Shown in pieces: positions 8,305-30,672 of a stretch of DNA of 37,985 nucleotides. The notes beneath the pieces were generated by a model, which saw only the letters and a list, made by a program, of their open reading frames with translations, did no database searches and was not told the origin of the DNA. Numbering within the stretch: position 1 is the stretch's first letter; every line of letters starts with the position of its first letter. Origin of the DNA: a virus (taxonomy: Duplodnaviria > Heunggongvirae > Uroviricota > Caudoviricetes); the IMG/VR virus record IMGVR_UViG_3300014614_000024, positions 1 through 37,985 of that record, one strand, 5' to 3'. Position numbers and translations under genes: made by a program.

Positions 8305-8820
8305 TCAGAGGCCGAGGGCGTTGCGGTGCGCTTCCATCAGGTCCACACCGTCCACAATTTCCACCATGTTGATAAGGTCCACTTCATAGAGCACCTCACC
8401 ATTGATAGTCAGCTTCGCGTAGCTGTTGGTACTGGTCACTTTGGTGGTGTTGCTTTCGCCCGTCTTCCACTCGCCGGAATCCACTTCTTTGTGACGTCCA
8501 CGCACCACAAGCTCCACGGCCTGCACTTCTCCGGTATCGTCACGCTGGATAGAGCCGGTGAAGCGCAACTGGATGCCATCCACCGTGGCTTTGCCCATCT
8601 GTTTAAACAGCAGCAGTTCAGTACCACCAATGGAAAATTCTGTGTCCAGAGCACTGTCATCCAGTCCCAGATCCACATCCACTGCACCCGGCATTCCGCC
8701 GCCGCGATACTTCTCATATTTGCGGGTGAATTTCGGCAGCGTCAGCGACTCAACGATCCCCTGCCAGTTGTTCCCGTCGTTAAACAGGTTCAGGTGTTTT
8801 AATTTGCGTGGTAAAGCCAT
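8305..8820 (-). CDS. FII: tail tube protein
   Basis: 171 aa, P2 gpFII-like; ATG at 8820. Confidence 0.9.
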   Translation of the reverse strand: MALPRKLKHLNLFNDGNNWQGIVESLTLPKFTRKYEKYRGGGMPGAVDVDLGLDDSALDTEFSIGGTELLLFKQMGKATVDGIQLRFTGSIQRDDTGEVQAVELVVRGRHKEVDSGEWKTGESNTTKVTSTNSYAKLTINGEVLYEVDLINMVEIVDGVDLMEAHRNALGL

Positions 8821-8829
8821 GTTGTCCCC

Positions 8830-10002
8830 TTACGCGCTGACCTGGCTGGAGAAATTCACCAGGTACTGATCGGTGATGCGCTGACGCAGCATCAGGTTTT
8901 CAAGTGGCGGCACTGGTGTGTAGTCGTAGTCGATGGTGAGTTTTCCAGCTTTCAGAGTGTCTTTGTCGTTCACCGACTCATCCAGCCAGCAATCGCCACC
9001 AATGAGATAGCCCTGACTGATCAGGCTGCGCATTTTGGCGCGGATACCTTCGATAATGTCGCGGGCCAGCGACGGATTCAGCGGTTTATCGACCGCCCAC
9101 ATTGGCGCTTCTGCCATCGTGTCCATCAGCACCTGCGCCGTGCGGGTGTAGTTTTCGAAGGCAAAGAGTGGGTCATCACTCAGGCAGCGGGAACCCCAGA
9201 AGCGGAAACCGTCTTTACGCACAAGCGTGGTGACGTCGTTCTGGTTCAGCAGACCTGCATCAGTTGCCGGGTCCTGCAGATCCCAGAACACATCAGCAGA
9301 AATTCCGGTGACACCGTTCACGCCCACGTTGGACAGGCTTTTGTGCCACCCTGTCTGCTCATCAATTTTGGCACGCAGACCAAGCGCACGGGCGGTGGCA
9401 TATGCCGTTGCGTCGGCATTCAGCACCGTGTCCCAGCCAGTAAAGTCAGGCCAAATCAGCATCCCTTCACGCTGACTGAAGTTTTCACGGTAAGTGATCG
9501 CCTCCTGCACCGTCTTGCAGCCATACGCTGACAGGTAAGCAAACCCACGCAGGCTTTGCGCCACGCCCAGCAACTCAGTAGCAACGGCTTTATTATCGTG
9601 CCCCGGCACGCCGAGGATGCGCGGTTTAACACCGAGCTGTGACTGGGCAGATAACAGGGCTTTCATACCAGTTTTTTTACCTTCAGCAGTCACTGCGCCG
9701 ATGATATTGGTCGTGGTTTCTTCTTCCGTTTCACCCTGCGGCACACGCACAACAACGGTCACGGGTTTTGCCTGGTCAGCGATGGCATCCAGCGAGCGGG
9801 CCAGCGTACCGGATTCACCCGCCTTACCGCTGGCAGTAAGCACATCAGTGATCAGCACGGGTTTATTAAGAGGGAACATTTTTGCATCGGCATCATCGCC
9901 CGTGCAGACCATGCCCACGATGGCGGTGCTCACCGTGGTAATGGATCGAGTGCCTTCGTTGACTTCAACAACGCGCACTCCGTGGTGGTAATCCTGAGCC
10001 AT
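8830..10002 (-). CDS. FI: contractile tail sheath protein
   Basis: 390 aa, P2 gpFI-like; ATG at 10002. Confidence 0.9.
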
Positions 10003-10108
10003 AGTGGCGAACCTCCTGATTGGATTAGGCTTCGCCCTATGTTGAAGTGATTGTGTCTGACAAGCAGCTAAGCGCAGTTGTACCGTTATTCACACAAAAT
10101 GACGGTAT

Positions 10109-10522
10109 TTATCTGCTTGCAGGGAAAACAGGCCAAATAATATCAGGTGCGGTGCTGGTATCTGTTGCCGTCACAGCCTCGATATAATCCAGCACAACGT
10201 TAAGTCGGGTAGTTTCCTCTTGCGTCAGTTTGCGCCCGGCCTGCAGCTTTAACTGAATCACGCTGATATTAGCCATTGCTGCGTCTGTCAGCGACTGTTT
10301 TTTCTGTTCAGCGTCAGCTACCAGTTCATCATGAGAACGTTCCGGAGGGAGCGGCGCAGTAAATACCCCGTCTGAATACCCCCATCCGATTCCGGGATGC
10401 TCACTGATATCAGAAATATCAATGAGCTGCTGATTATCCGGCACTGTGAATTCAGCCTCGCCATCCCAGACAATGACATTCACAACCATCCCATTTTCAA
10501 TAACTGCATATGACGTATTCAT
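10109..10522 (-). CDS. G: tail fibre assembly chaperone
   Basis: 137 aa from the ATG at 10522, which overlaps the H stop codon (TAATG) with GAGGAG 8 nt upstream; tail-fibre-assembly-like sequence (MNTSYAVIENG...). Confidence 0.8.
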   Translation of the reverse strand: MNTSYAVIENGMVVNVIVWDGEAEFTVPDNQQLIDISDISEHPGIGWGYSDGVFTAPLPPERSHDELVADAEQKKQSLTDAAMANISVIQLKLQAGRKLTQEETTRLNVVLDYIEAVTATDTSTAPDIIWPVFPASR

Positions 10523-12273
10523 TATGCAAACTCCTCGATAATACAAATCCCTGCTGCGCCTTTCCCGCCCGTCATACTGGTTCCGCTATAACCGGCATCG
10601 TATGCACCACCGCCACCTGAACCATATGCCTTACCGTTAACGCCACCGCCTGCGCCTGCGCGTCCACCGCCACCCCAGTACGATGTTCCGCCTTCACCGC
10701 TGACGCCGATATTTCCGGACTGACCGTCGCCTCCATTTCCACCAGTGATGCGGATATCGCCAGTACTCGGCACACCTCCGTTACCGCCGTTTGTATTTGT
10801 AACTCCCACTTTCCCGCCACCTGCGCCACCAGGAGCAATTAACGATGCAAATACGCTATTCCCGCCACTGGTGCCGTTCGTCGCACTAACACCACCGGCC
10901 CCACCTGCGCCGATAGTGACAGGATAACTATCCTTCGTCAGGATCAGCGTGGTGATTACTGTCCCACCTGCCCCGCCGCCAGCACCGAAAAACGTTTCAT
11001 TATTGGATATAGCCTTGCAGCCGCCCCCTCCGCCACCGCCGCCCGTTATTGTGACCCTGATCCGTTTTGTTCCTGGCGTCGGGGTGTACGTACCTGATGA
11101 GGTGAAAACCCGGGTATTCAGCCAGCGTCCAACGTATCCACTTGCATCGCTCAGACCAAGATATTGAATAACCGCCTGTGTGCTTGCTTTATCCAGAATA
11201 TTCCGTCCAACGTTAGTCAGGGTTGTCAGGCTGGCTGTATCATTCCCCGTAAAATACGGAAGTTTGTCTGCCGCAGTGGCAAGGTCTGCCAGTGCGGTCA
11301 GTGTGGCGTCGGCAGGTTGTTTTCCATTGGCAAGGTCATATACAGCCTTCACAGCTTTTGGTGTGGCAGCCTGCGTTTCTGACGTGCTGTTAGTGGCGCT
11401 GCTGAGTTGCACGGTACCTTTTACCGTCAGTGAAGCTGCAGGCACATCCGTTATCTGGCTCCACGGGTGCGTGTGACTGACAGGTGCCTTACCTGCTGCA
11501 AGGTCATATGCCGCCTTCACTGCCTTTGGTGTGGCAGCCTGCGTTTCTGACGTGCTGTTAGTGGCGCTGCTGAGTTGCACGGTGCCTTTTACCGTCAGTG
11601 AAGCTGCAGGCACATCCGTTATCTGATTCCACGGGTGTGTGTGACTGGCGGATGCTTTACCTGCTGCAAGATCATATGCAGCCTTCACAGCCTTTGGTGT
11701 TGCGGCCAGTATTTCGGATTCACTGTTGGTCGCACTGCTTAACTGAGTAAAACCTTTTGCGGTCAGCGAGGCGTCCGGGTGACGTCGTGACTGTTCGTGC
11801 TCTGATATTTTGTCATCCACATACTTGCGAGTTGCCAGCACGACGGCAGGGTCGATTTTCAGGGTGATATTGTCCGTGCTGCTGGTAATCAGCACCATGC
11901 GCACGGTCTGGGTGCGCCCGCTGCCTTCAGCCAGTTGCGGCTTATAGCTTTCCGGGCAGTTGCCCACGGCAATCAATGCCCCGGACTCATCAAACAGGCC
12001 CACTTCACGTATCCACCAACCGCCCTCGTTTTCAGGGATCACCTGTTCGGCAATAATCTGGCTGCTGTTCTGCGGGTCGATATAGAGCATATTCAGCGCA
12101 GCCCGGCGTTTCTCATTTACTAGTGCTGTCTGCTTTGCGTCCGGCGTTGGCAATGTTCCGCCGCCATCGCCGACCGCCATATGGGTAATTTTTAAAGGCA
12201 CACCGAGCGCGGCGGCGCTGGCAAGTTTCGCCGCGCCAATATCCGTCAGCAGGGTATAAAATTTTGTGCTCAT
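10522..12273 (-). CDS. H: tail fibre protein with conserved N-terminal P2-H-like domain, internal tandem repeats and glycine-rich C-terminal tip
   Basis: 583 aa; N-terminus like P2 gpH; see repeat feature; C-terminal ~175 aa are dominated by GG/GGG runs. Confidence 0.85.
   Translation of the reverse strand: MSTKFYTLLTDIGAAKLASAAALGVPLKITHMAVGDGGGTLPTPDAKQTALVNEKRRAALNMLYIDPQNSSQIIAEQVIPENEGGWWIREVGLFDESGALIAVGNCPESYKPQLAEGSGRTQTVRMVLITSSTDNITLKIDPAVVLATRKYVDDKISEHEQSRRHPDASLTAKGFTQLSSATNSESEILAATPKAVKAAYDLAAGKASASHTHPWNQITDVPAASLTVKGTVQLSSATNSTSETQAATPKAVKAAYDLAAGKAPVSHTHPWSQITDVPAASLTVKGTVQLSSATNSTSETQAATPKAVKAVYDLANGKQPADATLTALADLATAADKLPYFTGNDTASLTTLTNVGRNILDKASTQAVIQYLGLSDASGYVGRWLNTRVFTSSGTYTPTPGTKRIRVTITGGGGGGGGCKAISNNETFFGAGGGAGGTVITTLILTKDSYPVTIGAGGAGGVSATNGTSGGNSVFASLIAPGGAGGGKVGVTNTNGGNGGVPSTGDIRITGGNGGDGQSGNIGVSGEGGTSYWGGGGRAGAGGGVNGKAYGSGGGGAYDAGYSGTSMTGGKGAAGICIIEEFA
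11331..11770 (-). repeat. in-frame tandem direct repeats, period 168 bp (56 aa), about 2.6 copies, inside gene H
   Basis: copies begin at 11331, 11499 and 11667 (caaggtcatat...gcctttggtgtggcagcctgcgtttctgacg...), nearly identical at the DNA level; the protein shows repeated HTHPW(N/S)QITDVPAASLTVKGTVQLSSATNSTSETQAATPKAVKA.YDLA.GK. Confidence 0.8.
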
Positions 12274-20715: not shown

Positions 20716-22482
20716 ATGAACACCACACTGACACCCGCAGATCTCGATCCCCGTCGGCAGGCCATGCTGCTGTACTTTCAGGGATACCGCGTAGCCCGCA
20801 TTGCTGAAATGCTGGGCGAGAAAGTTGCAACCGTTCACAGCTGGAAAAAACGCGACAAGTGGGGTGACTATGGGCCGCTGGATCAGATGCAGCTCACCAC
20901 CGCCGCACGCTACTGCCAGCTCATTATGAAGGAGCACAAAGAAGGGAAAGATTTCAAAGAAATTGACCTGCTGGCGCGCCAGTCGGAGCGCCACGCGCGG
21001 ATCGGCAAGTTTAACAATGGCGGCAACGAAGCCGACTTAAACCCTAACGTCGCCAACCGCAACAAAGGCCCGCGCCGTCAGCCGGAAAAGAATGTTTTCA
21101 CCGATGAACAGATAGAGAAACTGGAAGAAATCTTCCATTCCTCCATGTTCAACTACCAGCGCCACTGGTGGGAAGCCGGAAAAACCAACCGCATCCGCAA
21201 CCTGCTGAAGTCACGCCAGATCGGCGCGACCTTTTACTTTGCCCGTGAAGCCCTGATTGACGCCCTGCTTACCGGACGTAACCAGATTTTCCTTTCTGCC
21301 AGTAAGGCACAGGCTCACGTCTTTAAGCAGTACATCATCGACTTCGCCAAAGAAGTCGAGGTGGAGCTGAAAGGCGATCCGATGGTGCTTCCTAACGGGG
21401 CCACGCTTTACTTCCTCGGCACCAATGCCCGCACGGCGCAGAGTTACCACGGCAACCTGTATCTGGATGAATATTTCTGGATACCGAAATTCCAGGAGTT
21501 GCGCAAAGTGGCTTCCGGTATGGCTATTCACAAGAAATGGCGACAAACCTATTTTTCCACGCCATCCAGCCTGACCCACAGTGCTTATCCGTTCTGGTCC
21601 GGTGCGCTGTTCAACCGTGGACGCAACAAAGCTGACAAGGTGGACATCGACCTGTCCCACAGCAATCTGGCCCCCGGCCTACTGTGCGCAGACGGGCAAT
21701 ACCGCCAGATAGTCACCGTGGAAGATGCGGTGCGCGGCGGCTGTAACCTGTTCGACCTCGACCAGCTGCGCATGGAGTACAGCCCGGACGAATACCAGAA
21801 CCTGCTGATGTGCGAGTTCGTGGACGATCTCGCGTCCGTGTTCCCGCTCAGCGAACTGCAGGCGTGCATGGTGGACAGCTGGGAAGTCTGGACCGACTTT
21901 CATGCACTGGCCCTGCGCCCGTTTGGCTGGCGCGAAGTGTGGATCGGTTATGACCCGGCAAAAGGTACGCAGAACGGCGACAGTGCCGGATGCGTGGTGG
22001 TGGCTCCGCCAGCCGTGCCGGGTGGTAAGTTCCGCATTCTTGAGCGTCACCAGTGGCGCGGGATGGACTTCCGCGCCCAGGCTGACGCCATCAAAAAACT
22101 GACCGAACAGTATAACGTGACCTATATCGGTATCGACTCGACCGGCGTCGGTCACGGGGTTTACGAGAACGTGAAAGCGTTTTTTCCTGCCGTCAGGGAG
22201 TTTGTCTATAACCCCAACGTTAAAAACGCCCTGGTACTCAAGGCCTACGACATTATCAGCCACCGCCGTCTGGAGTTTGACGCCGGGCACACCGACATTG
22301 CGCAGTCATTTATGGCAATCCGTCGCGCTACCACTGCCAGTGGCAACCGCCCGACCTATGAAGCCAGCCGCAGCGAAGAAGCCAGCCATGCCGATCTGGC
22401 CTGGGCAACAATGCACGCACTGTTTAACGAACCGCTGCAGGGCGAGTCCGCCAATACCAGCAATATTGTGGAGATTTTTTGA
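20716..22482 (+). CDS. P: terminase ATPase (large) subunit P
   Basis: 588 aa, P2 gpP-like; divergent from O as in P2. Confidence 0.9.
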   Translation: MNTTLTPADLDPRRQAMLLYFQGYRVARIAEMLGEKVATVHSWKKRDKWGDYGPLDQMQLTTAARYCQLIMKEHKEGKDFKEIDLLARQSERHARIGKFNNGGNEADLNPNVANRNKGPRRQPEKNVFTDEQIEKLEEIFHSSMFNYQRHWWEAGKTNRIRNLLKSRQIGATFYFAREALIDALLTGRNQIFLSASKAQAHVFKQYIIDFAKEVEVELKGDPMVLPNGATLYFLGTNARTAQSYHGNLYLDEYFWIPKFQELRKVASGMAIHKKWRQTYFSTPSSLTHSAYPFWSGALFNRGRNKADKVDIDLSHSNLAPGLLCADGQYRQIVTVEDAVRGGCNLFDLDQLRMEYSPDEYQNLLMCEFVDDLASVFPLSELQACMVDSWEVWTDFHALALRPFGWREVWIGYDPAKGTQNGDSAGCVVVAPPAVPGGKFRILERHQWRGMDFRAQADAIKKLTEQYNVTYIGIDSTGVGHGVYENVKAFFPAVREFVYNPNVKNALVLKAYDIISHRRLEFDAGHTDIAQSFMAIRRATTASGNRPTYEASRSEEASHADLAWATMHALFNEPLQGESANTSNIVEIF

Positions 22483-23519
22483 TGGGAAAGAGTAAGAAGA
22501 ACCGCGCTGCGTCGACGAAACAGATCCAGCATAAAAGCCAGACTTCAGCCGAAGCATTCAGCTTCGGTGATCCCGTTCCTGTTCTGGACCGCCGCGAACT
22601 GCTGGACTATGTGGAATGCGTACAGATGGATCGTTGGTACGAGCCGCCTGTGAGTTTCGACGGACTGGCGCGAACCTTCCGCGCCGCCGTGCATCACAGC
22701 TCACCGATTGCAGTGAAGTGCAACATTCTGACCAGCACCTACATCCCTCACCCGCTGCTCAGCCAGCAGGCTTTTTCGCGTTTTGTACAGGACTATCTGG
22801 TTTTTGGTAACGCCTACCTGGAGAAACGCACGAACCGCTTCGGTGAAGTTATCGCCCTTGAGCCTGCACTGGCAAAATACACCCGACGCGGGTTAGACCT
22901 TGATACCTACTGGTTTGTGCAATACGGCATGACTACGCAGCCGTATCAGTTCACGAAAGGCAACATTTTTCATCTGATGGAACCGGACATCAACCAGGAG
23001 ATCTACGGCCTGCCTGGTTATCTTTCTGCCATTCCGTCAGCTCTGCTCAACGAGTCCGCCACGCTGTTCCGCCGCAAGTATTACATTAACGGCAGTCATG
23101 CAGGCTTCATCATGTACATGACCGATGCAGCGCAGAACCAGGAGGATGTGAACAACCTCCGCAATGCGATGAAAAGCGCCAAAGGTCCTGGTAACTTCCG
23201 TAACCTGTTTATGTACTCGCCTAACGGTAAAAAGGACGGGCTTCAGATTATCCCGTTGTCAGAAGTGGCGGCGAAGGATGAGTTCCTGAATATCAAGAAC
23301 GTGAGCCGGGACGACATGATGGCGGCGCATCGTGTGCCGCCACAAATGATGGGGATAATGCCTAATAATGTCGGGGGGTTTGGGGATGTGGAGAAGGCCA
23401 GCCGTGTATTCGTCCGAAATGAGCTAATGCCACTACAAAAGCGATTACAGGAGATGAATGATTGGCTTGGCAAGGAGGCGATACAGTTTAATACCTACTC
23501 GCTAGATATAGTCCCATAA
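22479..23519 (+). CDS. Q: portal protein Q
   Basis: 346 aa, P2 gpQ-like; 4-bp overlap with P. Confidence 0.9.
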   Translation: MMGKSKKNRAASTKQIQHKSQTSAEAFSFGDPVPVLDRRELLDYVECVQMDRWYEPPVSFDGLARTFRAAVHHSSPIAVKCNILTSTYIPHPLLSQQAFSRFVQDYLVFGNAYLEKRTNRFGEVIALEPALAKYTRRGLDLDTYWFVQYGMTTQPYQFTKGNIFHLMEPDINQEIYGLPGYLSAIPSALLNESATLFRRKYYINGSHAGFIMYMTDAAQNQEDVNNLRNAMKSAKGPGNFRNLFMYSPNGKKDGLQIIPLSEVAAKDEFLNIKNVSRDDMMAAHRVPPQMMGIMPNNVGGFGDVEKASRVFVRNELMPLQKRLQEMNDWLGKEAIQFNTYSLDIVP

Positions 23520-23524
23520 TAAGA

Positions 23525-23546
23525 AAAGCCACCGTTTGGTGGCTTT
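23525..23546. terminator. bidirectional hairpin terminator between convergent Q and the HIRAN gene
   Basis: aaagccacc-gttt-ggtggcttt, flanked by A-run on the left and ttttctt on the right. Confidence 0.55.
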
Positions 23547-23553
23547 TCTTCAT

Positions 23554-24294
23554 TTACTCAATAGGTTCAAACTCATCCTGAGGAATCAGCGTCGATTGAC
23601 AGGCTTGGCTTAGTACTCCTGATAATTTACATAATAACCGATAGTTATGAGGAGCATCATCGCTAATCTTTTCGACCGTTAAAGTGATTGATTTTGGATC
23701 ATCCAATAACATCTTCTTGATATCATTACTTAAATACCTAGGGCAGTAACCAACGATTTCAGCTGGTTTATCTGCACGAACGACAACAGCATCCCCATCG
23801 TATTCATTTTGAAGATCCAAGCAAAGACGCAAAATTTGCCCCGGTTTCAATTCAGATACACGAGCATTAGCTAAGCTATTTAAGTAACCAAGTCCATGTA
23901 AGAAGAAAAAATGCTCAAAGTTACCATCAGAATCAACATCAATTTTTTTGAAAATCTGCAGCTGATCAGTGCTTCGTAAGCCTCCCGAGCGAGCAAGAAT
24001 ATCGATAGGATTTACCTTATCTTCTTCAAATCCAAGCCATTTAATGAAACTCGGATACTCTGGACGTCTCGGTGATAAAAGGCGATTTTTAAAAAGAGGA
24101 AACAATTCTTCCGAAACATAAGTTTCACGAACATCACTCATGCCGCTAAACTTTGTAAATTTAGTAGATTTAAGAGCACCTTTGGTATACCTGAAAACAT
24201 ACCCCGATTTGCGCTCTTGCAAGTTACCAACAACATGCCAGTCTCTGGTATCTGGTGCCTGCCATGCGACGTAAACGGAGTTTGTATTAGTCAT
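23554..24294 (-). CDS. HIRAN-domain protein (cargo; second gene of a two-gene operon)
   Basis: 246 aa; C-terminal segment LRLCLDLQNEYDGDAVVVRADKPAEIVGYCPRYLSNDIKKMLLD fits the HIRAN signature (N.yD..A..V...G.IGY.PR) as I recall it; ATG overlaps the upstream stop (ATGA); AT-rich. Confidence 0.6.
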   Translation of the reverse strand: MTNTNSVYVAWQAPDTRDWHVVGNLQERKSGYVFRYTKGALKSTKFTKFSGMSDVRETYVSEELFPLFKNRLLSPRRPEYPSFIKWLGFEEDKVNPIDILARSGGLRSTDQLQIFKKIDVDSDGNFEHFFFLHGLGYLNSLANARVSELKPGQILRLCLDLQNEYDGDAVVVRADKPAEIVGYCPRYLSNDIKKMLLDDPKSITLTVEKISDDAPHNYRLLCKLSGVLSQACQSTLIPQDEFEPIE

Positions 24295-25205
24295 TCTAGT
24301 AACCTTCTGCGATTTTCCATTACCATTAACGTTGCAAATCTACGTGCACTGTCGGATATACACGATGAAGGCACTTGGTTAAACACATCTGTAATGGAAT
24401 CTTCTGTTAAAACGCTCAACTTACCTAACCAATGGTCGCGAGCGGCAACTCTCCCTTCAACTGCATGTTGAAATGCTTCAACGGTCAGCAAGGGCTTTTT
24501 ATCAGTTTTTGCTTTGAATAGCTCAGAGCGAGCTTTTCTTACAAAACATGGGATTTGTCGATTTTTATCTTTAGTATTAAGCCGTTCGTTACGCTCATCA
24601 TCTAACATCTCCCTTCCTAAACTAGCGGCATGATCGTATGTTGGACACAAAAACTGCTCACCAGTTTCATTGTTAAGCATGATCGCCCAATTTTCATGAT
24701 GGCGATCTTGATTACTCACAAGTGCATCGAGCATCAAAAATCCACAAAATACATCTGCTGCATTTAGCCCGGTTAGATCATATACACTCGGAGGAGGCTT
24801 GATAGATTCCCTATCTAAACAACCCAATACCCTTGTGACAGTGTGTTCTCTGACCCTTACCGGCTTTTCCCCGGCTTGTAAAGGCCCTGGATAATCGAAT
24901 GTCGAACTGTGAAGCACTTCATTTCCCATTACCATCCGGAAACCAGATGGAATGATATTCTGAGTCACCACACCGAATCGACCATTGTATCGCGCCAAAT
25001 CATAGCTAGCATGTGGAATGTTAAGCAAATGACATAACTCAGCAGCACACTTTTCAGACCAATGCTCGCCAGTACCTGGCCTAGAGTACTTAAACAACTG
25101 CAAATTTACAGTGTCATCGGAGAAATAGAACCAAAACTTCTCTTTGGTTCCTAACTGTTCAAGATCGTTAGCTACGGGGCTAAGCTCTACCAATTGGTAT
25201 GGCAT
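24291..25205 (-). CDS. HipA-like Ser/Thr kinase core (short form, lacks the HipA N-terminal subdomains)
   Basis: 304 aa; motifs GTKEKF (compare HipA G.QEK), SNQDRHHENW (catalytic loop D.H..N) and LCPTYD (compare HipA LAPAYD); AGGGA upstream of the ATG at 25205. Confidence 0.65.
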   Translation of the reverse strand: MPYQLVELSPVANDLEQLGTKEKFWFYFSDDTVNLQLFKYSRPGTGEHWSEKCAAELCHLLNIPHASYDLARYNGRFGVVTQNIIPSGFRMVMGNEVLHSSTFDYPGPLQAGEKPVRVREHTVTRVLGCLDRESIKPPPSVYDLTGLNAADVFCGFLMLDALVSNQDRHHENWAIMLNNETGEQFLCPTYDHAASLGREMLDDERNERLNTKDKNRQIPCFVRKARSELFKAKTDKKPLLTVEAFQHAVEGRVAARDHWLGKLSVLTEDSITDVFNQVPSSCISDSARRFATLMVMENRRRLLE

Positions 25206-25350
25206 CTGACATCCCTGTTTAGCGGATTATGAATAAGTTAGGTTCCATTTTATCCAAACATTGTCAAATACTCTAAGATTTATTAGATGATAGAGCGATA
25301 CTGTATGCATGTCCAGCAATCAAATCAATATATAACTCTTATATGACTTA

Positions 25351-25380
25351 GCGCGCGCTCGTATCCCCGCCACGCCTGCC
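25351..25380 (-). other. putative cos site (cohesive-end region)
   Basis: minus-strand GGCGTGGCGGGGA (plus 25365-25376 ccccgccacgcc) matches the first 13 nt of the 186/P2 cohesive end as I recall it; lies in the only large non-coding gap between Q and A; flanked by repeated TCATGC motifs. Confidence 0.35.
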
Positions 25381-25867: not shown

Positions 25868-26830
25868 TTAACCTTCATAGTTCATGCCGCCAAGATACGA
25901 AGGTATCATCATTAATGATTTAACCCTTTCTTTTTCTTTTTCGGTGAGATGACGACATGCAAATGGGTAAATATTGATCAAAAATGTCTTGAGTTCGTCA
26001 AATGCCTCATCTGAATATAGGGTCCCAGATCTTAACTCATTCATTATTGTCATGACCCATTTTATAAACACAGTTGGCATCATTACATCAGCTATATCTT
26101 CCCAGCCATCAATAAGGCCATTGTTTGTTTGTTTTCTAACATACTGCCGGAGTGCTTGGTCGCAGTTGCCTCGACACGTCCAAAAAATATGTTCATTATA
26201 CTCTGGTTCTTTTTCGTAGTCGGTGCGGATTCTTTGCCATATAGTGATAATTCCCTTGTCGTCTTGAGACAGAAGCTCTTTCTTGCAAACTTTGCATTTT
26301 AAGCTAGGTTCATCGGAAAATATTCTTGCGGGTTTGGGGTTTTCTGTTTTCCACTCAGATAACGACTTTGGGAAGTACCTTTCGGCAATTTCCAATCCTC
26401 TGGAAGAGTGTAAAAGTTCCCTCTCTATTTTCTCTTTATCGAAAACCTGAAATTCAATTCGTCCTTTCAACCCGTCAAGTATTCCAGACAGACCTGCACT
26501 AGCAAGAGTTGAATAGAACCCGATAAATCCTTGGCAGTTATTCGCTATTACTCGATCAGTAATATTTGCATCATCTCCTGGATTAACTGAATTTCCACTA
26601 TGAGCTTTATGCTTACAGCTTACCAACCAACGGATAATTGTTTCCCCGCCGACACCAGTCCTTTTTTCTTCGGCTATAATATCAACCCCACCGTCAGCCC
26701 CTCTATCTGGGTCAGATATAATTTTATATCCCAGAAAAGCTAAGAAGTCGCGAGAAAAAAGTTCAAATGTGTCTTGCAGCCCTGTTGCTTTATGAGCCTC
26801 TGGTATTTCTTTGAAGTCTAATACTGGCAT
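25868..26830 (-). CDS. Mrr-cat-like PD-(D/E)xK nuclease domain fused to a Cys-rich (CxxC...CxxxC) C-terminal domain; cargo
   Basis: 320 aa; N-terminal GADGGVDIIAEE...LVSCKHK resembles the restriction-endonuclease (Mrr catalytic) core; C-terminal CKVCKK...CRGNC; AT-rich; own divergent promoter region. Confidence 0.5.
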   Translation of the reverse strand: MPVLDFKEIPEAHKATGLQDTFELFSRDFLAFLGYKIISDPDRGADGGVDIIAEEKRTGVGGETIIRWLVSCKHKAHSGNSVNPGDDANITDRVIANNCQGFIGFYSTLASAGLSGILDGLKGRIEFQVFDKEKIERELLHSSRGLEIAERYFPKSLSEWKTENPKPARIFSDEPSLKCKVCKKELLSQDDKGIITIWQRIRTDYEKEPEYNEHIFWTCRGNCDQALRQYVRKQTNNGLIDGWEDIADVMMPTVFIKWVMTIMNELRSGTLYSDEAFDELKTFLINIYPFACRHLTEKEKERVKSLMMIPSYLGGMNYEG

Positions 26831-27112: not shown

Positions 27113-27523
27113 ATGGTTACGGTTGATGAATTAAAGATGAAATATCCGGACGCGAATGCCTGGCAAATGGGCGACAGCCCTGAACTGGCTAACGAGCTTG
27201 CAGCGCTTATCAAAAAAGGAATTAAAACGGCCTCCTGCGGCTCTTATGCCTCTTACCAGAAGGAAGAGTTTGCCCCAAGGATTGGGAGCTATAACATCAT
27301 CCTTAACGGCCAAGATGTACCGGTATACGTGACCCGGCTGGTGTCGATGCGACTGGTGCGTTTTTGTGATGTTACTGCCGAGTTCGCTCGCAAGGAAGGT
27401 GAAGGCGATTTGAGTCTTGAATATTGGCAGAGAGAGCATCAACGATTTTTTACATGTGAAGGTTACTTTTCTGATGATATGGAGCTGATTATGGAAGAGT
27501 TTGAAGTTGTTGATGTTTTGTAA
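27113..27523 (+). CDS. ASCH (PUA-like) domain protein; cargo
   Basis: 136 aa; resembles the YqfB/ASCH family by eye (IKKGIKTAS..., ...AEFARKEGEGD...); AAAGGA 6 nt upstream of the ATG. Confidence 0.55.
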   Translation: MVTVDELKMKYPDANAWQMGDSPELANELAALIKKGIKTASCGSYASYQKEEFAPRIGSYNIILNGQDVPVYVTRLVSMRLVRFCDVTAEFARKEGEGDLSLEYWQREHQRFFTCEGYFSDDMELIMEEFEVVDVL

Positions 27524-27713: not shown

Positions 27714-27947
27714 TTAATGCAGCCAGCTGTCGTCTTCCCACACCTTCTGCATAATTTTCATCACTTGTTTTCTTTCTTCGTCCAGTTGCAATCCGGTAAG
27801 TTCCACACCGTTAGAGCTACCTTTGCGGATACGAATTACCGTTTTGGGATACAGGGGGCGCAGATTGCGGTAAAGCTCGGATTCAAGGGCGTCCAGGGTA
27901 GACTGGCTAATCTTCTGCTCTTTATCGATCATTATTTCAATGCGCAT
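27714..27947 (-). CDS. DinI-family protein
   Basis: 77 aa; MRIEIMIDK...ELYRNL...KIMQKVWEDD parallels E. coli DinI (MRIEVTIAK...ILQETWESADDW); GAGGTG 7 nt upstream. Confidence 0.7.
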   Translation of the reverse strand: MRIEIMIDKEQKISQSTLDALESELYRNLRPLYPKTVIRIRKGSSNGVELTGLQLDEERKQVMKIMQKVWEDDSWLH

Positions 27948-27958
27948 AAAAAGTCACC

Positions 27959-28147
27959 TCAACTGATGACATCCATTGAGCGGTTGTATTCGTGGGTTCT
28001 GATTTTTGCCATGAGTTCATCTGTTAGTTCAGAAACCCACTGCAAAGCCAGCCCCTTCTCTTCATCACTACACTCACTAGTCGCTACAAGCTTAAGAAAA
28101 AAATCAATGCGCTGGAGCTTCAAAGACTCCAAAAAATAGTCCTGCAT
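27959..28147 (-). CDS. small acidic protein, first gene of the SOS-box operon (candidate Tum-like antirepressor)
   Basis: 62 aa; AGGAGG upstream of ATG 28147; LexA box 43-58 bp upstream; positional analogy to 186 tum only, no sequence recognition. Confidence 0.35.
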   Translation of the reverse strand: MQDYFLESLKLQRIDFFLKLVATSECSDEEKGLALQWVSELTDELMAKIRTHEYNRSMDVIS

Positions 28148-28299: not shown

Positions 28300-30672
28300 T
28301 TAATACAGGTTCCGCCACTTATCATCTTCCTGCAAACGCTGGTTCCGATAGAAGATACGCAGGCCTGCTCCTGACGGAATACTGCCGCCGCGAAGGAGTA
28401 AATCGACCTCTTTCTCGCTACCATCAAATCCTCTGGACTTCAGCTCATAGACGAGCTGCAGTCGCTGATGGTCTGTAATTCGCTGTTTGTAGTCTTTACG
28501 CCGTTTCGGTTTAACCAGGCGTAACCTTGCAGCCAGTTCCCGGCGCTCTTTTTTGCTCATACTGTGCAGGTAATCGTGCAACTCCTTGTCATCCATGCGG
28601 GTAATGTCCGTTCTGATGTCCCCATCAGCTGATTTATCTTTCTCCTGTTGGTTCAAATTTTCAGCAAGGGGACAGTTATTGCCACGAGTCCAAGGGGCGC
28701 AAGCGCCCTGGTCGGCTGCCGCCTCCTGAACGTCAACGGCCTTACGAACCATTTTCCACTTCACGGCATGAGTGCAGATCTTGCCCTCTGCAATAGGTGA
28801 CCAGATGCCATAAATACGAATGCCGTGATCGCCATAGGCGGTCGGCTCTTCGTTGATTTCATAAGCAGTTCTGATGAGGTGATATTTGCGGGGAACCAGT
28901 ACGCCACCCTGCTTCATGATGTAGGTGGCAAAACAACCAGCATCAGCAGCAGCCAGAATGGCATCAAGGCGCGGGTTATCCAGTACCGGCGCACCTGCTT
29001 TTTTGTCCCCCTGTTGCCTTGCCGCCTGACCAGCCAGCAATCGCAGTTCACGGTAAGCCTGACGCCCCGGAATGCCAAAGAAGCGGAATTGCTGAACACG
29101 ATGCAGAGACGCCCAGGCATTAACGTATTCAGCATTATCACGCAGGGATTTCCCCGTTTCCTTGCTGATCTCGCCAGCCAGACCACGCCCGTCAATGTTC
29201 TTACTGATGTATTTCGCGATGTAGCTTGTTGGCGTACCTTTGCGCGGGTTAATCAACTCAGACTTAAAGCGCGGCCCAGTGTTATTGCCCAGCTCCTCGC
29301 GGTCTTCACGGATGGCAAACTTACGCAGTAATGCAGTGATGGTGCGGCGGTCTTTTTTGCGCATAAAACACAACAGGTGCCAGTGAACTGTACCGTCATG
29401 ATGCGGCTCAGCCACCCGCACGCCATACCACCGCAATCCGGCTTTGTGCATCGCCTTACGAAATGCAGCAAACATGCCGACCAGATAATCACTGCTTTGT
29501 CTTACCGTCGCATTTGTCCAGGTTGGGTTGGGCCTGCCGTTATTTAGCGTGGAATGGAAACGTGACGGACAGGTGATGGTGTAGAAAACGGCGCAGTCAC
29601 CGCGCATTTCCGCGATAAGCTCCAGACCTTTAACACAGGCCATCATCTCATTGCGGCGATGCGCAGGGTTGCTGCTGCTGGCGTTTACCACATCCTCCAT
29701 GTCCAGCGTGTCGCCGTCTTCGTTCACCAGTTCATGAGAACGGAAAAACTCCAGCGACTTACGGCGCTGCTCACGTTTATGCATCACGGCTTCATAGCTG
29801 ACATAGGGAGATGCTTTTTTGCTGACCAGGCAAACAGCACGCAACTGCTCTTCCCGCCATTCGCAACGCATCTTCCATAATTTCCGGTACCACCAGTCGG
29901 CGCACAACATACGCGCCAGCGAACCCGGAATGAGTTCATAGGGCACGGGTTTACGGCGGTTTCTTTTCCGGCGGAGTTGCTCAAACGCAGGCGGTATGAC
30001 ATCCAGTCGCAGGGTTTCTGCTGCCACCTTTTCCCATGTCTTGCGGATTTCTTCTGGCTTAACGTCATCGGTGGCATACAAATCGCCACAAGCTGCATCA
30101 AGGCACATGCTCATATGCGCAGCAACAAGGGTGGACAGGCGTTTCACCTGATCCTGACTCATTTCAGGCAGAATCAGCAGGCCGTCCAGCCCTTCATGGC
30201 TTGCCATAAAGCGAAAAGAAGTGGATAGCTGACTGTCGCGCACATGCTCCAGCCGTTCCAGACATGGCTTAATCGTCTCACGCAAATAGCGGGAATAAGC
30301 CTTTGGCCTGCCAAGGCTGCTGAAGTATTCAATACGTTGCATCAGCGGCTTGCTGATATGGGAAGGCTGGGCATTGACGTCCGCCAGAATGACCATATCT
30401 GGATTAAAACGCTGCTGCTCATGCGCCAGCTTTGCCCGACTAATGAGCTTATCCTGCTCCATTTCGCGCTGTACAGGATCACGGGATTCATTAAAGAAAT
30501 AACGCTCCCAGACCTGATCACTCAGTACCTCGCGGCGCAGGTGTTCCTGCTCGTTATCGGCAGCGTACAGAGCGATCAGGTTTGAAAGCGCAGAAACTGA
30601 AGATTGCTCTTCTGTCTCTACGTAAGGATTGATTGCTTTTTTCTCAGCATTCCAGGAATAGCTGTAGTTCAT
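28300..30672 (-). CDS. A: replication initiation endonuclease A (rolling-circle HUH Rep)
   Basis: 790 aa; HUH motif HWHLL and two-tyrosine motif YIAKYISK; same position as P2/186 gene A. Confidence 0.85.

What the first reader, a model, noticed from the sequence alone, without database searches (positions are those of the whole stretch)
23554..25205. HipA-like kinase + HIRAN-domain protein operon sandwiched between the portal gene and the putative cos site
Two translationally coupled genes (ATGA overlap at 24291-24294) are transcribed toward Q, in AT-rich DNA that contrasts with the flanking GC-rich late genes. The upstream product is a short HipA-type kinase: it has the G.KEK motif, the D-R-H-H-E-N catalytic loop and the P.YD metal-binding motif, but lacks the HipA N-terminal subdomains, as HipT does. 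Its partner is neither HipB- nor HipS-like but carries a C-terminal HIRAN domain, a fold known to bind 3' ends of ssDNA. The position is the classical P2-family accessory locus (where P2 carries old/tin). I do not recognise kinase + HIRAN as a described toxin-antitoxin or anti-phage system. A working hypothesis is a DNA-end sensor coupled to a translation-arresting kinase (abortive infection).
Basis: partly seen in the sequence, partly recalled or inferred. Interest (0 to 1): 0.8.

Follow-up and report, generated by a model that had tools for sequence, protein, structure and literature searches.

The report
Catalogued kinase–HIRAN prophage defence candidate

Summary
Two overlapping minus-strand genes (24291-25205, 304 aa; 23554-24294, 246 aa; ATGA overlap) lie in 39-43% GC DNA beside 52-57% GC late genes.

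- **Kinase:** it has the HipA/CtkA kinase fold with invariant catalytic residues.
- **Prior descriptions:** the pair matches the hipIN module of Gerdes et al. 2021, who already proposed the same "DNA-end sensor triggers abortive kinase" idea. It hits PADLOC PDC-M03A/B at 1e-121 and 1e-93. Its proteins (one identical, one differing by one residue) are listed in Rousset et al. 2022's table of P2 hotspot cargo.
- **Selection and distribution:** it is accessory (21 of 5,426 complete E. coli genomes), under strong purifying selection (dN/dS 0.03-0.06), and the two genes stay paired across phyla.
- **Position:** it sits in a portal-to-cos slot, on the other side of cos from P2 old/tin. Fels-2 carries an AIPR (Abi-type) gene in that slot.
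- **Status:** I found no experimental validation. A related fused system tested by Rousset was not among their validated defences.

Verdict: real, sensible, already catalogued; function still inferred.

The parts
24291..25205 (-). hipI-type gene: 304-aa short HipA-superfamily Ser/Thr kinase (putative toxin)
   Evidence: ORF. PADLOC PDC-M03A at 1.4e-121. HipA_C hit in 31 of 32 family members. AlphaFold model pLDDT 82.5. Foldseek matches CtkA at 3.6e-9 (TM 0.64-0.70), HipA at 1.6e-6 and HipT(Lp) at 2e-4. One residue differs from RefSeq WP_001146828. dN/dS about 0.05.
25137..25151 (-). Codons for the Gly-rich (ATP-binding) loop, G19-T20-K21-E22-K23
   Evidence: All five residues are invariant in the 32-sequence alignment A2. 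Equivalence to the HipA/HipT loop motif G-x-Q-x-K was judged by eye, not by a tool.
24690..24707 (-). Codons for the catalytic loop, D167-R-H-H-E-N172
   Evidence: Invariant in A2. Aligned to the DRHNGN segment of CtkA (D155 by position in the alignment) by HMMER. Lies within the Pfam HipA_C match.
24633..24638 (-). Codons for Y190-D191, the predicted Mg-binding Asp (DFG-equivalent)
   Evidence: Invariant in A2. Aligned to I-F-D179 of CtkA.
23554..24294 (-). hipN-type gene: 246-aa two-domain partner (putative antitoxin and sensor)
   Evidence: ORF. PADLOC PDC-M03B at 3.4e-93. 100% identical to RefSeq WP_000185757. AlphaFold model pLDDT 88.8, pTM 0.83. dN/dS 0.03-0.055.
23941..24294 (-). HipS-like N-terminal domain (about residues 1-118): four strands, three short helices, a fifth strand
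23611..23922 (-). HIRAN domain (about residues 125-228) with the N163-x-Y165-D166-x-x-A169 motif
24291..24294 (-). ATGA stop/start overlap (translational coupling)
   Evidence: Seen in the sequence. The same -4 overlap occurs in 65 of 121 related loci and other short overlaps in most of the rest.
25287..25315 (-). Promoter-like site TGGACA-17-TATCAT, about 80 nt upstream of the kinase ATG
   Evidence: Consensus scan, 10 of 12 matches. Not tested. The scan found fewer sites than shuffled sequence gave, so this is weak evidence.
25359..25376 (-). Putative cos core GGCGTGGCGGGGATACGA
   Evidence: Single match in the window. The same motif lies at the same 153-nt distance from hipI in about 30 IMG/VR P2-like contigs. 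The surrounding 58 nt is 95% conserved in Fels-2 and Klebsiella P2-like phages. It resembles the cos-containing stretch in Rousset's cloned P2 loci. The P2 and 186 cos sequences are from memory.
23521..23550 (.). 13-bp perfect hairpin between the convergent stop codons of Q and hipN (bidirectional terminator)
   Evidence: Folding gives -21 kcal/mol, z = -6.3, with 0 of 200 shuffles folding as well.
22479..23519 (+). Context: portal gene Q, convergent with the module
   Evidence: ORF. RefSeq annotates the homologue as 'phage portal protein'. Q lies directly downstream of hipN in 37 of 55 viral contigs.

Best explanation
Identity (about 0.95 likely): this is a hipIN-type module, equal to PADLOC candidate PDC-M03. 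It is carried as accessory cargo in the portal-to-cos slot of a Fels-2-like (Felsduovirus-type) P2-family prophage.

Proposed mechanism (inferred, about 0.5 likely):
1. HipI is a core-only HipA-superfamily Ser/Thr kinase. When free, it phosphorylates an essential translation component and arrests growth. By analogy, HipA targets GltX and HipT targets TrpS.
2. The HipS-like N-domain of HipN docks on the kinase where HipA carries its N-subdomain 1. [quoted passage not shown] The overlapping genes help keep the two proteins at matched levels.
3. The C-terminal HIRAN domain, which keeps the N-x-Y-D motif used by HLTF to hold a DNA 3' end, reports free DNA 3' ends. These could come from an infecting phage, its replication or packaging intermediates, or a degraded chromosome.
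4. DNA binding releases or re-orients the HipS-like domain. The kinase fires and the infected lysogen stops translating, so the competing phage is aborted.

Shown here: the genes, folds, motifs, gene pairing, purifying selection, and mobile, defence-rich context. Inferred: toxicity, neutralisation, trigger, target and any anti-phage phenotype.
For: - **Domain and fold identity:** PADLOC hits at 1.4e-121 and 3.4e-93. The kinase folds like CtkA, HipA and HipT. The partner is HipS-like plus HIRAN.
- **Active-site conservation:** catalytic residues are invariant. N163 is invariant across about 80 relatives, and Y165 and D166 are kept in the window's subfamily.
- **Precedent for neutralisation:** HipS neutralises HipT by direct binding near the Gly-rich loop (eLife 2023).
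- **Gene pairing:** the kinase lies directly upstream of hipN in 70 of 80 genomes spanning several phyla and in 55 of 55 viral contigs. Start/stop overlap is conserved. A natural kinase-HipS-like fusion occurs in another P2 hotspot system.
- **Selection:** dN/dS is 0.03-0.06.
- **Accessory, mobile and defence context:**
  - It is present in 21 of 5,426 E. coli genomes, against about 1,240 with the same portal region.
  - The same slot in Fels-2 holds an AIPR-domain gene.
  - Neighbouring cargo is an Mrr_cat nuclease here and SIR2 plus an ATPase in a sister prophage.
  - The Q-to-A region is a documented defence hotspot.
- **Published hypothesis:** the same mechanism was proposed independently by Gerdes et al. 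2021.
Against: - No experiment on any hipIN or PDC-M03 member was found in the searchable literature. PADLOC's label is 'candidate'.
- The closest tested relative is the fused 'Exonuclease + HipA' system pFR108 from a P2 hotspot. It appears only among Rousset's 'additional tested systems', not among the validated ones, on eight coliphages.
- Many distant HipN relatives replace the Tyr-Asp of the HIRAN pocket with Ala-Thr, so 3'-OH sensing cannot be universal in the family.
- The HipS-like motif is equally conserved in HipN-like genes that have no adjacent kinase.
- Direct HipI-HipN contact could not be modelled with the tools available.
Confidence: 0.55

Rival explanations
1. A plain addiction or persistence toxin-antitoxin module. 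HipI and HipN stabilise the prophage or promote dormancy. HIRAN supplies DNA binding for autoregulation or localisation in place of HipB, with no phage sensing.
For: The HipBA and HipBST relatives are classical toxin-antitoxin systems. The module has no HTH partner, so HIRAN is its only DNA-binding domain. A related fused system was not validated as a defence.
Against: [quoted passage not shown] No operator-like repeat lies between cos and the start codon. The module sits in slots that otherwise carry Abi-type and nuclease genes. Addiction and defence are not mutually exclusive.
Confidence: 0.2
2. A kinase-signalling defence or regulator that is not abortive through translation arrest. HipI phosphorylates phage proteins, many host proteins or HipN itself (compare Stk2 or the Pf prophage KKP module). 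HipN tethers it to DNA ends or stalled forks.
For: The closest solved structure is CtkA, not a tRNA-synthetase-targeting Hip toxin. The kinase has a conserved but unmodelled loop at residues 96-118, which could be a distinct substrate site. By eye, the position equivalent to the HipA/HipT autophosphorylation serine is an invariant Glu.
Against: All characterised Hip toxins listed by Gerdes target aminoacyl-tRNA synthetases. The HipS-like fold argues for HipBST-like inhibition.
Confidence: 0.15
3. A function for the phage's own life cycle. The pair, 153 nt from cos, handles or protects the prophage's own DNA ends, or controls induction or superinfection by close relatives.
For: The cos-hipI-hipN-Q arrangement and spacing are kept in 37 of 55 viral contigs, even where Q is only 61-65% identical.
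Against: The pair is absent from about 98% of E. coli prophages that share this portal region, and no phage record in the phage collection carries it. The same pair occurs in non-P2 contexts and across many phyla. Fels-2 fills the slot with an unrelated gene.
Confidence: 0.05
4. Decaying or inert cargo with no current function.
For: None beyond the lack of experimental data. Pfam HipA_C is below its cut-off for this protein.
Against: Both reading frames are intact in AT-rich DNA. dN/dS is 0.03-0.06. Catalytic and pocket residues are invariant.
Confidence: 0.02

Closest known systems
hipIN module (HipI kinase + HipN), Gerdes, Baerentsen & Brodersen, mBio 2021 (PMC8262856)
   Same: A short core-only Hip kinase (279-321 aa in the paper, 304 aa here) is encoded first. 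[quoted passage not shown] The family occurs in Proteobacteria and Cyanobacteria. The paper proposes the same DNA-end sensing and abortive-infection hypothesis.
   Different: Nothing in architecture. The paper sampled only 14 hipIN modules and did not discuss P2-like prophages, the portal-to-cos slot or kinase-less HipN-like genes. Phylogenetic placement of this kinase in their clade XI was not tested here.
PADLOC-DB v2 phage defence candidate PDC-M03 (A = HipA-like, B = HIRAN)
   Same: Both proteins hit the A and B models over their full length, at 1.4e-121 and 3.4e-93, and the genes are adjacent. [quoted passage not shown]
   Different: None. It is a candidate label only, and I found no validation.
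'HIRAN-kinase' unknown system and P2 hotspot cargo, Rousset et al., Cell Host Microbe 2022 (PMC9122126)
   Same: [quoted passage not shown] Their table of P2 loci lists WP_001146828 + WP_000185757, which are the window's proteins (one residue differs in the first, the second is identical).
   Different: They did not clone this pair. They treat the whole Q-to-A interval as one hotspot, whereas this pair is on the portal side of cos.
HipBST tripartite toxin-antitoxin system of E. coli O127 (HipT kinase, HipS antitoxin, HipB repressor)
   Different: There is no HipB/HTH gene here. The gene order is kinase first. The HipS-like domain is fused to HIRAN. The Ser-x-Ser autophosphorylation motif of HipT is not evident (by eye). 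The kinase is structurally nearer to CtkA than to HipT.
HipL kinases, and the 'Exonuclease + HipA' P2 system pFR108
   Same: The same three modules (kinase core, HipS-like, HIRAN) are fused in one chain in HipL. The pFR108 kinase aligns to both the window kinase family (96% probability) and the HipN N-terminus (E = 1.5e-4). It too is P2 hotspot cargo.
   Different: It is a single polypeptide paired with a DEDD exonuclease. No such exonuclease occurs in any of 136 hipIN loci examined. pFR108 is listed only among 'additional tested systems', not among the validated ones.
HLTF/Rad5 HIRAN domains
   Different: The domain is fused to a HipS-like domain rather than a SNF2 motor. The HLTF Phe142 position is not conserved in bacterial members, which Gerdes took to suggest single-stranded ends.
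P2 old/tin locus and the Fels-2 AIPR gene (accessory slots of P2-like phages)
   Same: AT-rich variable cargo between portal gene Q and replication gene A, a documented reservoir of anti-phage genes. Fels-2 has an AIPR-domain gene in exactly the same Q-to-cos position.
   Different: By established knowledge of the P2 map, P2 old/tin lie between cos and A. This pair lies between Q and cos. The proteins are unrelated.

Membership tests
hipIN (Gerdes 2021) | Short HipA-homologous kinase lacking N-subdomain 1, with the conserved core kinase motifs | tested here: met
   304 aa. The Gly-rich loop lies at residues 19-23. The catalytic D167..N172 and D191 are invariant. HipA_C hits 31 of 32 family members. 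The fold matches CtkA, HipA and HipT.
hipIN (Gerdes 2021) | [quoted passage not shown] | tested here: met
hipIN (Gerdes 2021) | Bicistronic operon, kinase first | tested here: met
   ATGA overlap. The same order holds in 70 of 80 genome loci and 55 of 55 viral loci.
hipIN (Gerdes 2021) | [quoted passage not shown] | not tested
   The part of their Table S1 holding the clade XI sequences is not in the stored supplement, so no tree was built.
PADLOC PDC-M03 | Adjacent genes matching the PDC-M03A and PDC-M03B models | tested here: met
   1.4e-121 (residues 2-304) and 3.4e-93 (residues 1-244).
HipBST | Third gene encoding a HipB HTH repressor, in the order hipB-hipS-hipT | tested here: not met
   Only two genes lie between Q and cos. 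There is no HTH hit, and the kinase is upstream of the HipS-like gene.
Canonical HipBA | Full-length HipA (about 440 aa) with N-subdomains, plus an upstream HipB | tested here: not met
   The kinase is 304 aa with no Couple_hipA region. The HipA N-subdomain fold is found in the partner instead.
Type II toxin-antitoxin system (functional definition) | The toxin arrests growth, and the cognate protein neutralises it by binding | not testable with these tools
   Only inferred from the HipBST precedent, gene coupling and natural fusions.
Anti-phage defence / abortive infection system | Reduces phage plating or causes infected-cell arrest when expressed | not testable with these tools
   No published test was found. 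The related fused system pFR108 is listed among tested but not validated systems.
HIRAN domain (PF08797) | Pfam score above the gathering cut-off, HIRAN fold, N-x-Y-D pocket motif | tested here: met
HIRAN domain (PF08797) | Binds DNA 3' ends | not testable with these tools
   Inferred from the conserved motif. Note that many distant HipN relatives lack the Tyr-Asp.
P2-family Q-to-A hotspot cargo (Rousset 2022) | Variable genes located between portal gene Q and replication gene A of a P2-like prophage | tested here: met
   Q is at 22479-23519 and A at 28300-30672. The pair is present in 21 of about 1,240 E. coli genomes with this portal region. Its proteins are listed in their table of P2 loci.

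The most novel reading that the evidence does not exclude
The HipS-HIRAN protein may be a portable DNA-end sensor and adaptor rather than a dedicated antitoxin. It would plug into HipI kinases in prophage cargo slots. When no kinase is present, it would plug into other DNA-targeting machines. In several genomes a HipN-like gene with the same invariant HipS-type motif sits between hsdS and hsdR of Type I restriction operons, or beside SNF2, UvrD or Type ISP enzymes. In the window, the copy sits 153 nt from cos. It could be tuned to the recessed 3' ends that cos cleavage creates in competing P2-, P4- or 186-type elements.
Probability: 0.1. Interest if true: 0.65.

Novelty: already known. Interest (0 to 1): 0.3.

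Why it matters
If the published hypothesis is right, this would be a defence in which free DNA 3' ends are sensed directly by a domain shared with eukaryotic fork-remodelling enzymes, and the output is a translation-arresting kinase. That would link the persistence-type Hip toxins to anti-phage immunity.

The E. coli copy sits in a genetically tractable P2-like prophage, so it is a convenient test case. But the module, its architecture, its hotspot location and the hypothesis are all already in the literature and in PADLOC. The window therefore adds a clean example and some context, not a discovery. The added context is the portal-to-cos slot, the strength of purifying selection, the two HIRAN motif classes and the kinase-less relatives.

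Tried and rejected
- **Single-sequence and profile HMMER searches of PDB sequences.** These gave nothing useful for the partner. For the kinase they gave only CtkA, at E = 0.32 (single sequence) and 1e-3 (profile). Fold searches were needed.
- **NCBIfam.** No model matches either protein. PHROGs has both only as 'unknown function'.
- **A hidden third component.**
  - No HTH or HipB gene.
  - No DEDD exonuclease in any of 136 related loci.
  - No Rfam family in the region; the one hit, BSnc120 at 32 bits against a 114-bit cut-off, falls on the terminator hairpin and was dismissed.
  - No operator-like repeats upstream of the kinase.
- **A divergent kinase beside kinase-less HipN genes.** The 299-aa ORF upstream of hipN in L062 is not a kinase (hhalign probability 0.05%).
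- **Experimental validation.** Ten literature searches under several names found none (hipIN, HipN, PDC-M03, HIRAN with anti-phage/antiphage/toxin/kinase, HipA-like). Many 'HIRAN' hits were the surname Hirano. The library holds open-access papers only, so a validation in a subscription journal cannot be excluded.
- **A core P2 gene.** Rejected, because the pair is in 21 of 5,426 genomes against about 1,240 with the portal region.
- **Kile et al. 2015 on HLTF HIRAN.** The paper is not held, so HLTF residue numbers rest on my memory.
Full report
**1. What is in the sequence**

Two minus-strand ORFs occupy 24291-25205 (304 aa) and 23554-24294 (246 aa). The stop of the first overlaps the start of the second as ATGA. 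Each start codon is preceded by a purine-rich ribosome-binding sequence (read).

The genes run towards the portal gene Q (22479-23519, +). A perfect 13-bp hairpin at 23521-23550 separates the two stop codons (-21 kcal/mol, z = -6.3).

GC content is 0.39-0.43 for the pair and for everything up to the replication gene A. The late genes P and Q and gene A are at 0.52-0.57.

A single cos-like 18-mer, GGCGTGGCGGGGATACGA, lies at 25359-25376 on the minus strand, 153 nt upstream of the kinase start. A promoter-like TGGACA-17-TATCAT site lies between it and the gene.

**2. The kinase**

- Pfam HipA_C matches only below its cut-off for this protein (20.6 against 30.5 bits), but it matches 31 of 32 family members.
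- The family alignment shows these residues as invariant: G19-T-K-E-K23, K39, D167-R-H-H-E-N172 and Y190-D191.
- HMMER aligns D167 and D191 with D155 and D179 of the Helicobacter kinase CtkA.
- The AlphaFold model (pLDDT 82.5) matches CtkA (E = 3.6e-9, TM 0.64-0.70), many E. coli HipA entries (from 1.6e-6) and Legionella HipT (2e-4).
- It is a core-only HipA-superfamily kinase, with the Gly-rich loop near its N-terminus.

**3. The partner**

- Pfam HIRAN is significant over residues 127-228 (1.1e-13). There is also a weak Couple_hipA hit over residues 20-72.
- The AlphaFold model is confident (pLDDT 88.8, pTM 0.83).
- Its order of four strands, three short helices and a fifth strand is the topology published for HipS.
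- The statement that the partner is 'neither HipB- nor HipS-like' is therefore wrong.
- In the HIRAN domain, QN163-E-Y165-D166-G-D-A169 aligns with HLTF NNPYDKNA (the HLTF sequence and numbering are from memory).

**4. It is already described**

- **Gerdes, Baerentsen and Brodersen (mBio 2021)** defined hipIN. [quoted passage not shown] They proposed that HIRAN recognises DNA ends of invading phages and so activates the kinase to cause abortive infection.
- **PADLOC-DB v2** holds the pair as phage defence candidate PDC-M03. [quoted passage not shown]
- **Rousset et al. [quoted passage not shown] Their table of E. coli P2 loci contains WP_001146828 + WP_000185757.
- The window's partner is identical to WP_000185757, and its kinase differs from WP_001146828 by one residue.
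- **A 2025 NAR paper** still calls HIRAN-HipA operons 'predicted' defence genes.
- Ten literature searches found no experiment on this module. Only open-access text is searchable.

**5. Evidence that it is a functional, mobile two-gene unit**

- Both genes are under strong purifying selection: dN/dS is 0.03-0.06 against relatives at 85-93% protein identity.
- The partner family has 316 clusters at E <= 1e-30 among 1.84 billion representative proteins.
- It spans Gamma- and Betaproteobacteria, Cyanobacteria, Verrucomicrobia, Planctomycetes, Campylobacterota and others.
- The kinase gene lies directly upstream in 70 of 80 genome loci and in all 55 viral contigs.
- The two genes overlap by 4 nt in 65 of 121 loci, and by 8-14 nt in most of the others.
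- A fused kinase-HipS-like protein in another P2 hotspot system aligns to both window families. This supports a physical partnership.
- No DEDD exonuclease accompanies this subfamily. Such an exonuclease does accompany the fused form and actinobacterial members.

**6. Genomic position**

- The late genes are 97% identical to Klebsiella P2-like phages, and the layout matches Fels-2.
- Only 21 of 5,426 complete E. coli genomes carry the pair, while about 1,240 match the adjoining portal or cos sequence. It is accessory, not core.
- In 37 of 55 IMG/VR contigs the order cos - hipI - hipN, then convergent Q - P, is kept. This includes prophages whose Q is only 61-65% identical.
- Fels-2 has a 565-aa AIPR-domain (Abi-type) gene in exactly this Q-to-cos position.
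- Felsduovirus-type phages therefore have a cargo slot on the portal side of cos. It is distinct from the cos-to-A slot, where P2 keeps old and tin (P2 map from established knowledge; hotspot).
- In the window, the cos-to-A slot holds an Mrr_cat protein, an ASCH protein, DinI and a small ORF. A sister E. coli prophage has SIR2 plus an ATPase there.

**7. Most likely mechanism**

[quoted passage not shown] The HIRAN domain probably reports free DNA 3' ends. DNA binding would then free the kinase, which would phosphorylate a translation factor and arrest the infected cell.

The folds, motifs, pairing and context are shown. Toxicity, neutralisation, trigger, target and phenotype are inferred.

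Points against:
- A related fused system (pFR108) is listed only among Rousset's 'additional tested systems', not the validated ones.
- Most beta-proteobacterial and verrucomicrobial HipN relatives have N-N-P-A-T in place of the Tyr-Asp pocket.
- The HipS-type motif E63-L-F65-P-L-F68-x-N70-R71 is just as invariant in HipN-like genes that lack a neighbouring kinase.

Rivals are a plain addiction or persistence module, a non-abortive signalling kinase, a phage-own function at cos, and inert cargo.

**8. Verdict**

This is an already catalogued candidate system whose function remains untested. It is a reasonable experimental target but not a new finding.

Noticed in passing
L033 5833-6753; L076 5926-6759; L061 1784-2602; L062 1072-1896; also L038, L046, L079, L022, L024, L014: HipN-like (HipS + HIRAN) genes with no adjacent Hip kinase. 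In L033, L076 and L061 the gene follows hsdS (Methylase_S), with hsdR identified downstream in L033 and L076. In L062 it overlaps the start of hsdR. Others sit beside SNF2+SWIM, UvrD-like, Type ISP/HD or Schlafen-AlbA_2 genes. The HipS-type motif stays invariant in them. I did not see this in Gerdes 2021 in the parts I read.
   Followed up: partly
window 23520-25376; L137 (Fels-2) 1241-2938: Fels-2-type P2-like phages have a cargo slot between portal gene Q and cos, separate from the cos-to-A slot. Fels-2 fills it with a 565-aa AIPR-domain (Abi-type) gene; the window fills it with hipIN.
   Followed up: partly
window 25868-26830 (-): A 320-aa protein with an N-terminal Mrr_cat restriction-endonuclease domain (4.7e-6) and only faint PADLOC PDC-S02 hits. 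It has no PHROG or NCBIfam match and is likely another defence-type cargo gene in the cos-to-A slot.
   Followed up: no
window 27113-27523 (+), 27714-27947 (-), 27959-28147 (-): An ASCH-domain protein (2e-21), a DinI-like protein (6.6e-23) and a 62-aa ORF lie between the Mrr-like gene and replication gene A. The ASCH gene is on the opposite strand to its neighbours.
   Followed up: no
L001 (E. coli GmM062) 8402-11301: A sister prophage with the same hipIN pair carries SIR2 plus an ATP-binding protein in the cos-to-A slot, in place of the window's Mrr/ASCH genes. The two slots are shuffled independently.
   Followed up: no
HipN residues 163-169 (window 23788-23808) and relatives L026-L081: There are two HIRAN motif classes among HipN relatives. 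The window group has canonical Q-N-x-[Y/H]-D-x-x-A. Most beta-proteobacterial and verrucomicrobial members have N-N-P-A-T-x-x-A, lacking the Tyr-Asp that holds the 3'-OH in HLTF.
   Followed up: partly
kinase residues 96-118 (window 24852-24920): This loop is modelled with pLDDT below 50, yet it contains the invariant residues E96, V97, L98, H99, Y105 and P106. It may become ordered only on binding HipN or the substrate. By eye, the position equivalent to the HipA/HipT autophosphorylated serine is an invariant Glu (E16).
   Followed up: no
L119-L136 (IMG/VR contigs): About a third of the viral contigs carrying hipIN (54-72% identity to the window pair) have no P2-type Q, P, A or cos nearby. 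The module therefore also rides on other kinds of prophage or element.
   Followed up: no
window 23490-23568 (+): A weak Rfam hit to Brucella sRNA BSnc120 (32 bits against a 114-bit gathering score) coincides with the Q/hipN terminator hairpin. It is almost certainly just the hairpin.
   Followed up: yes
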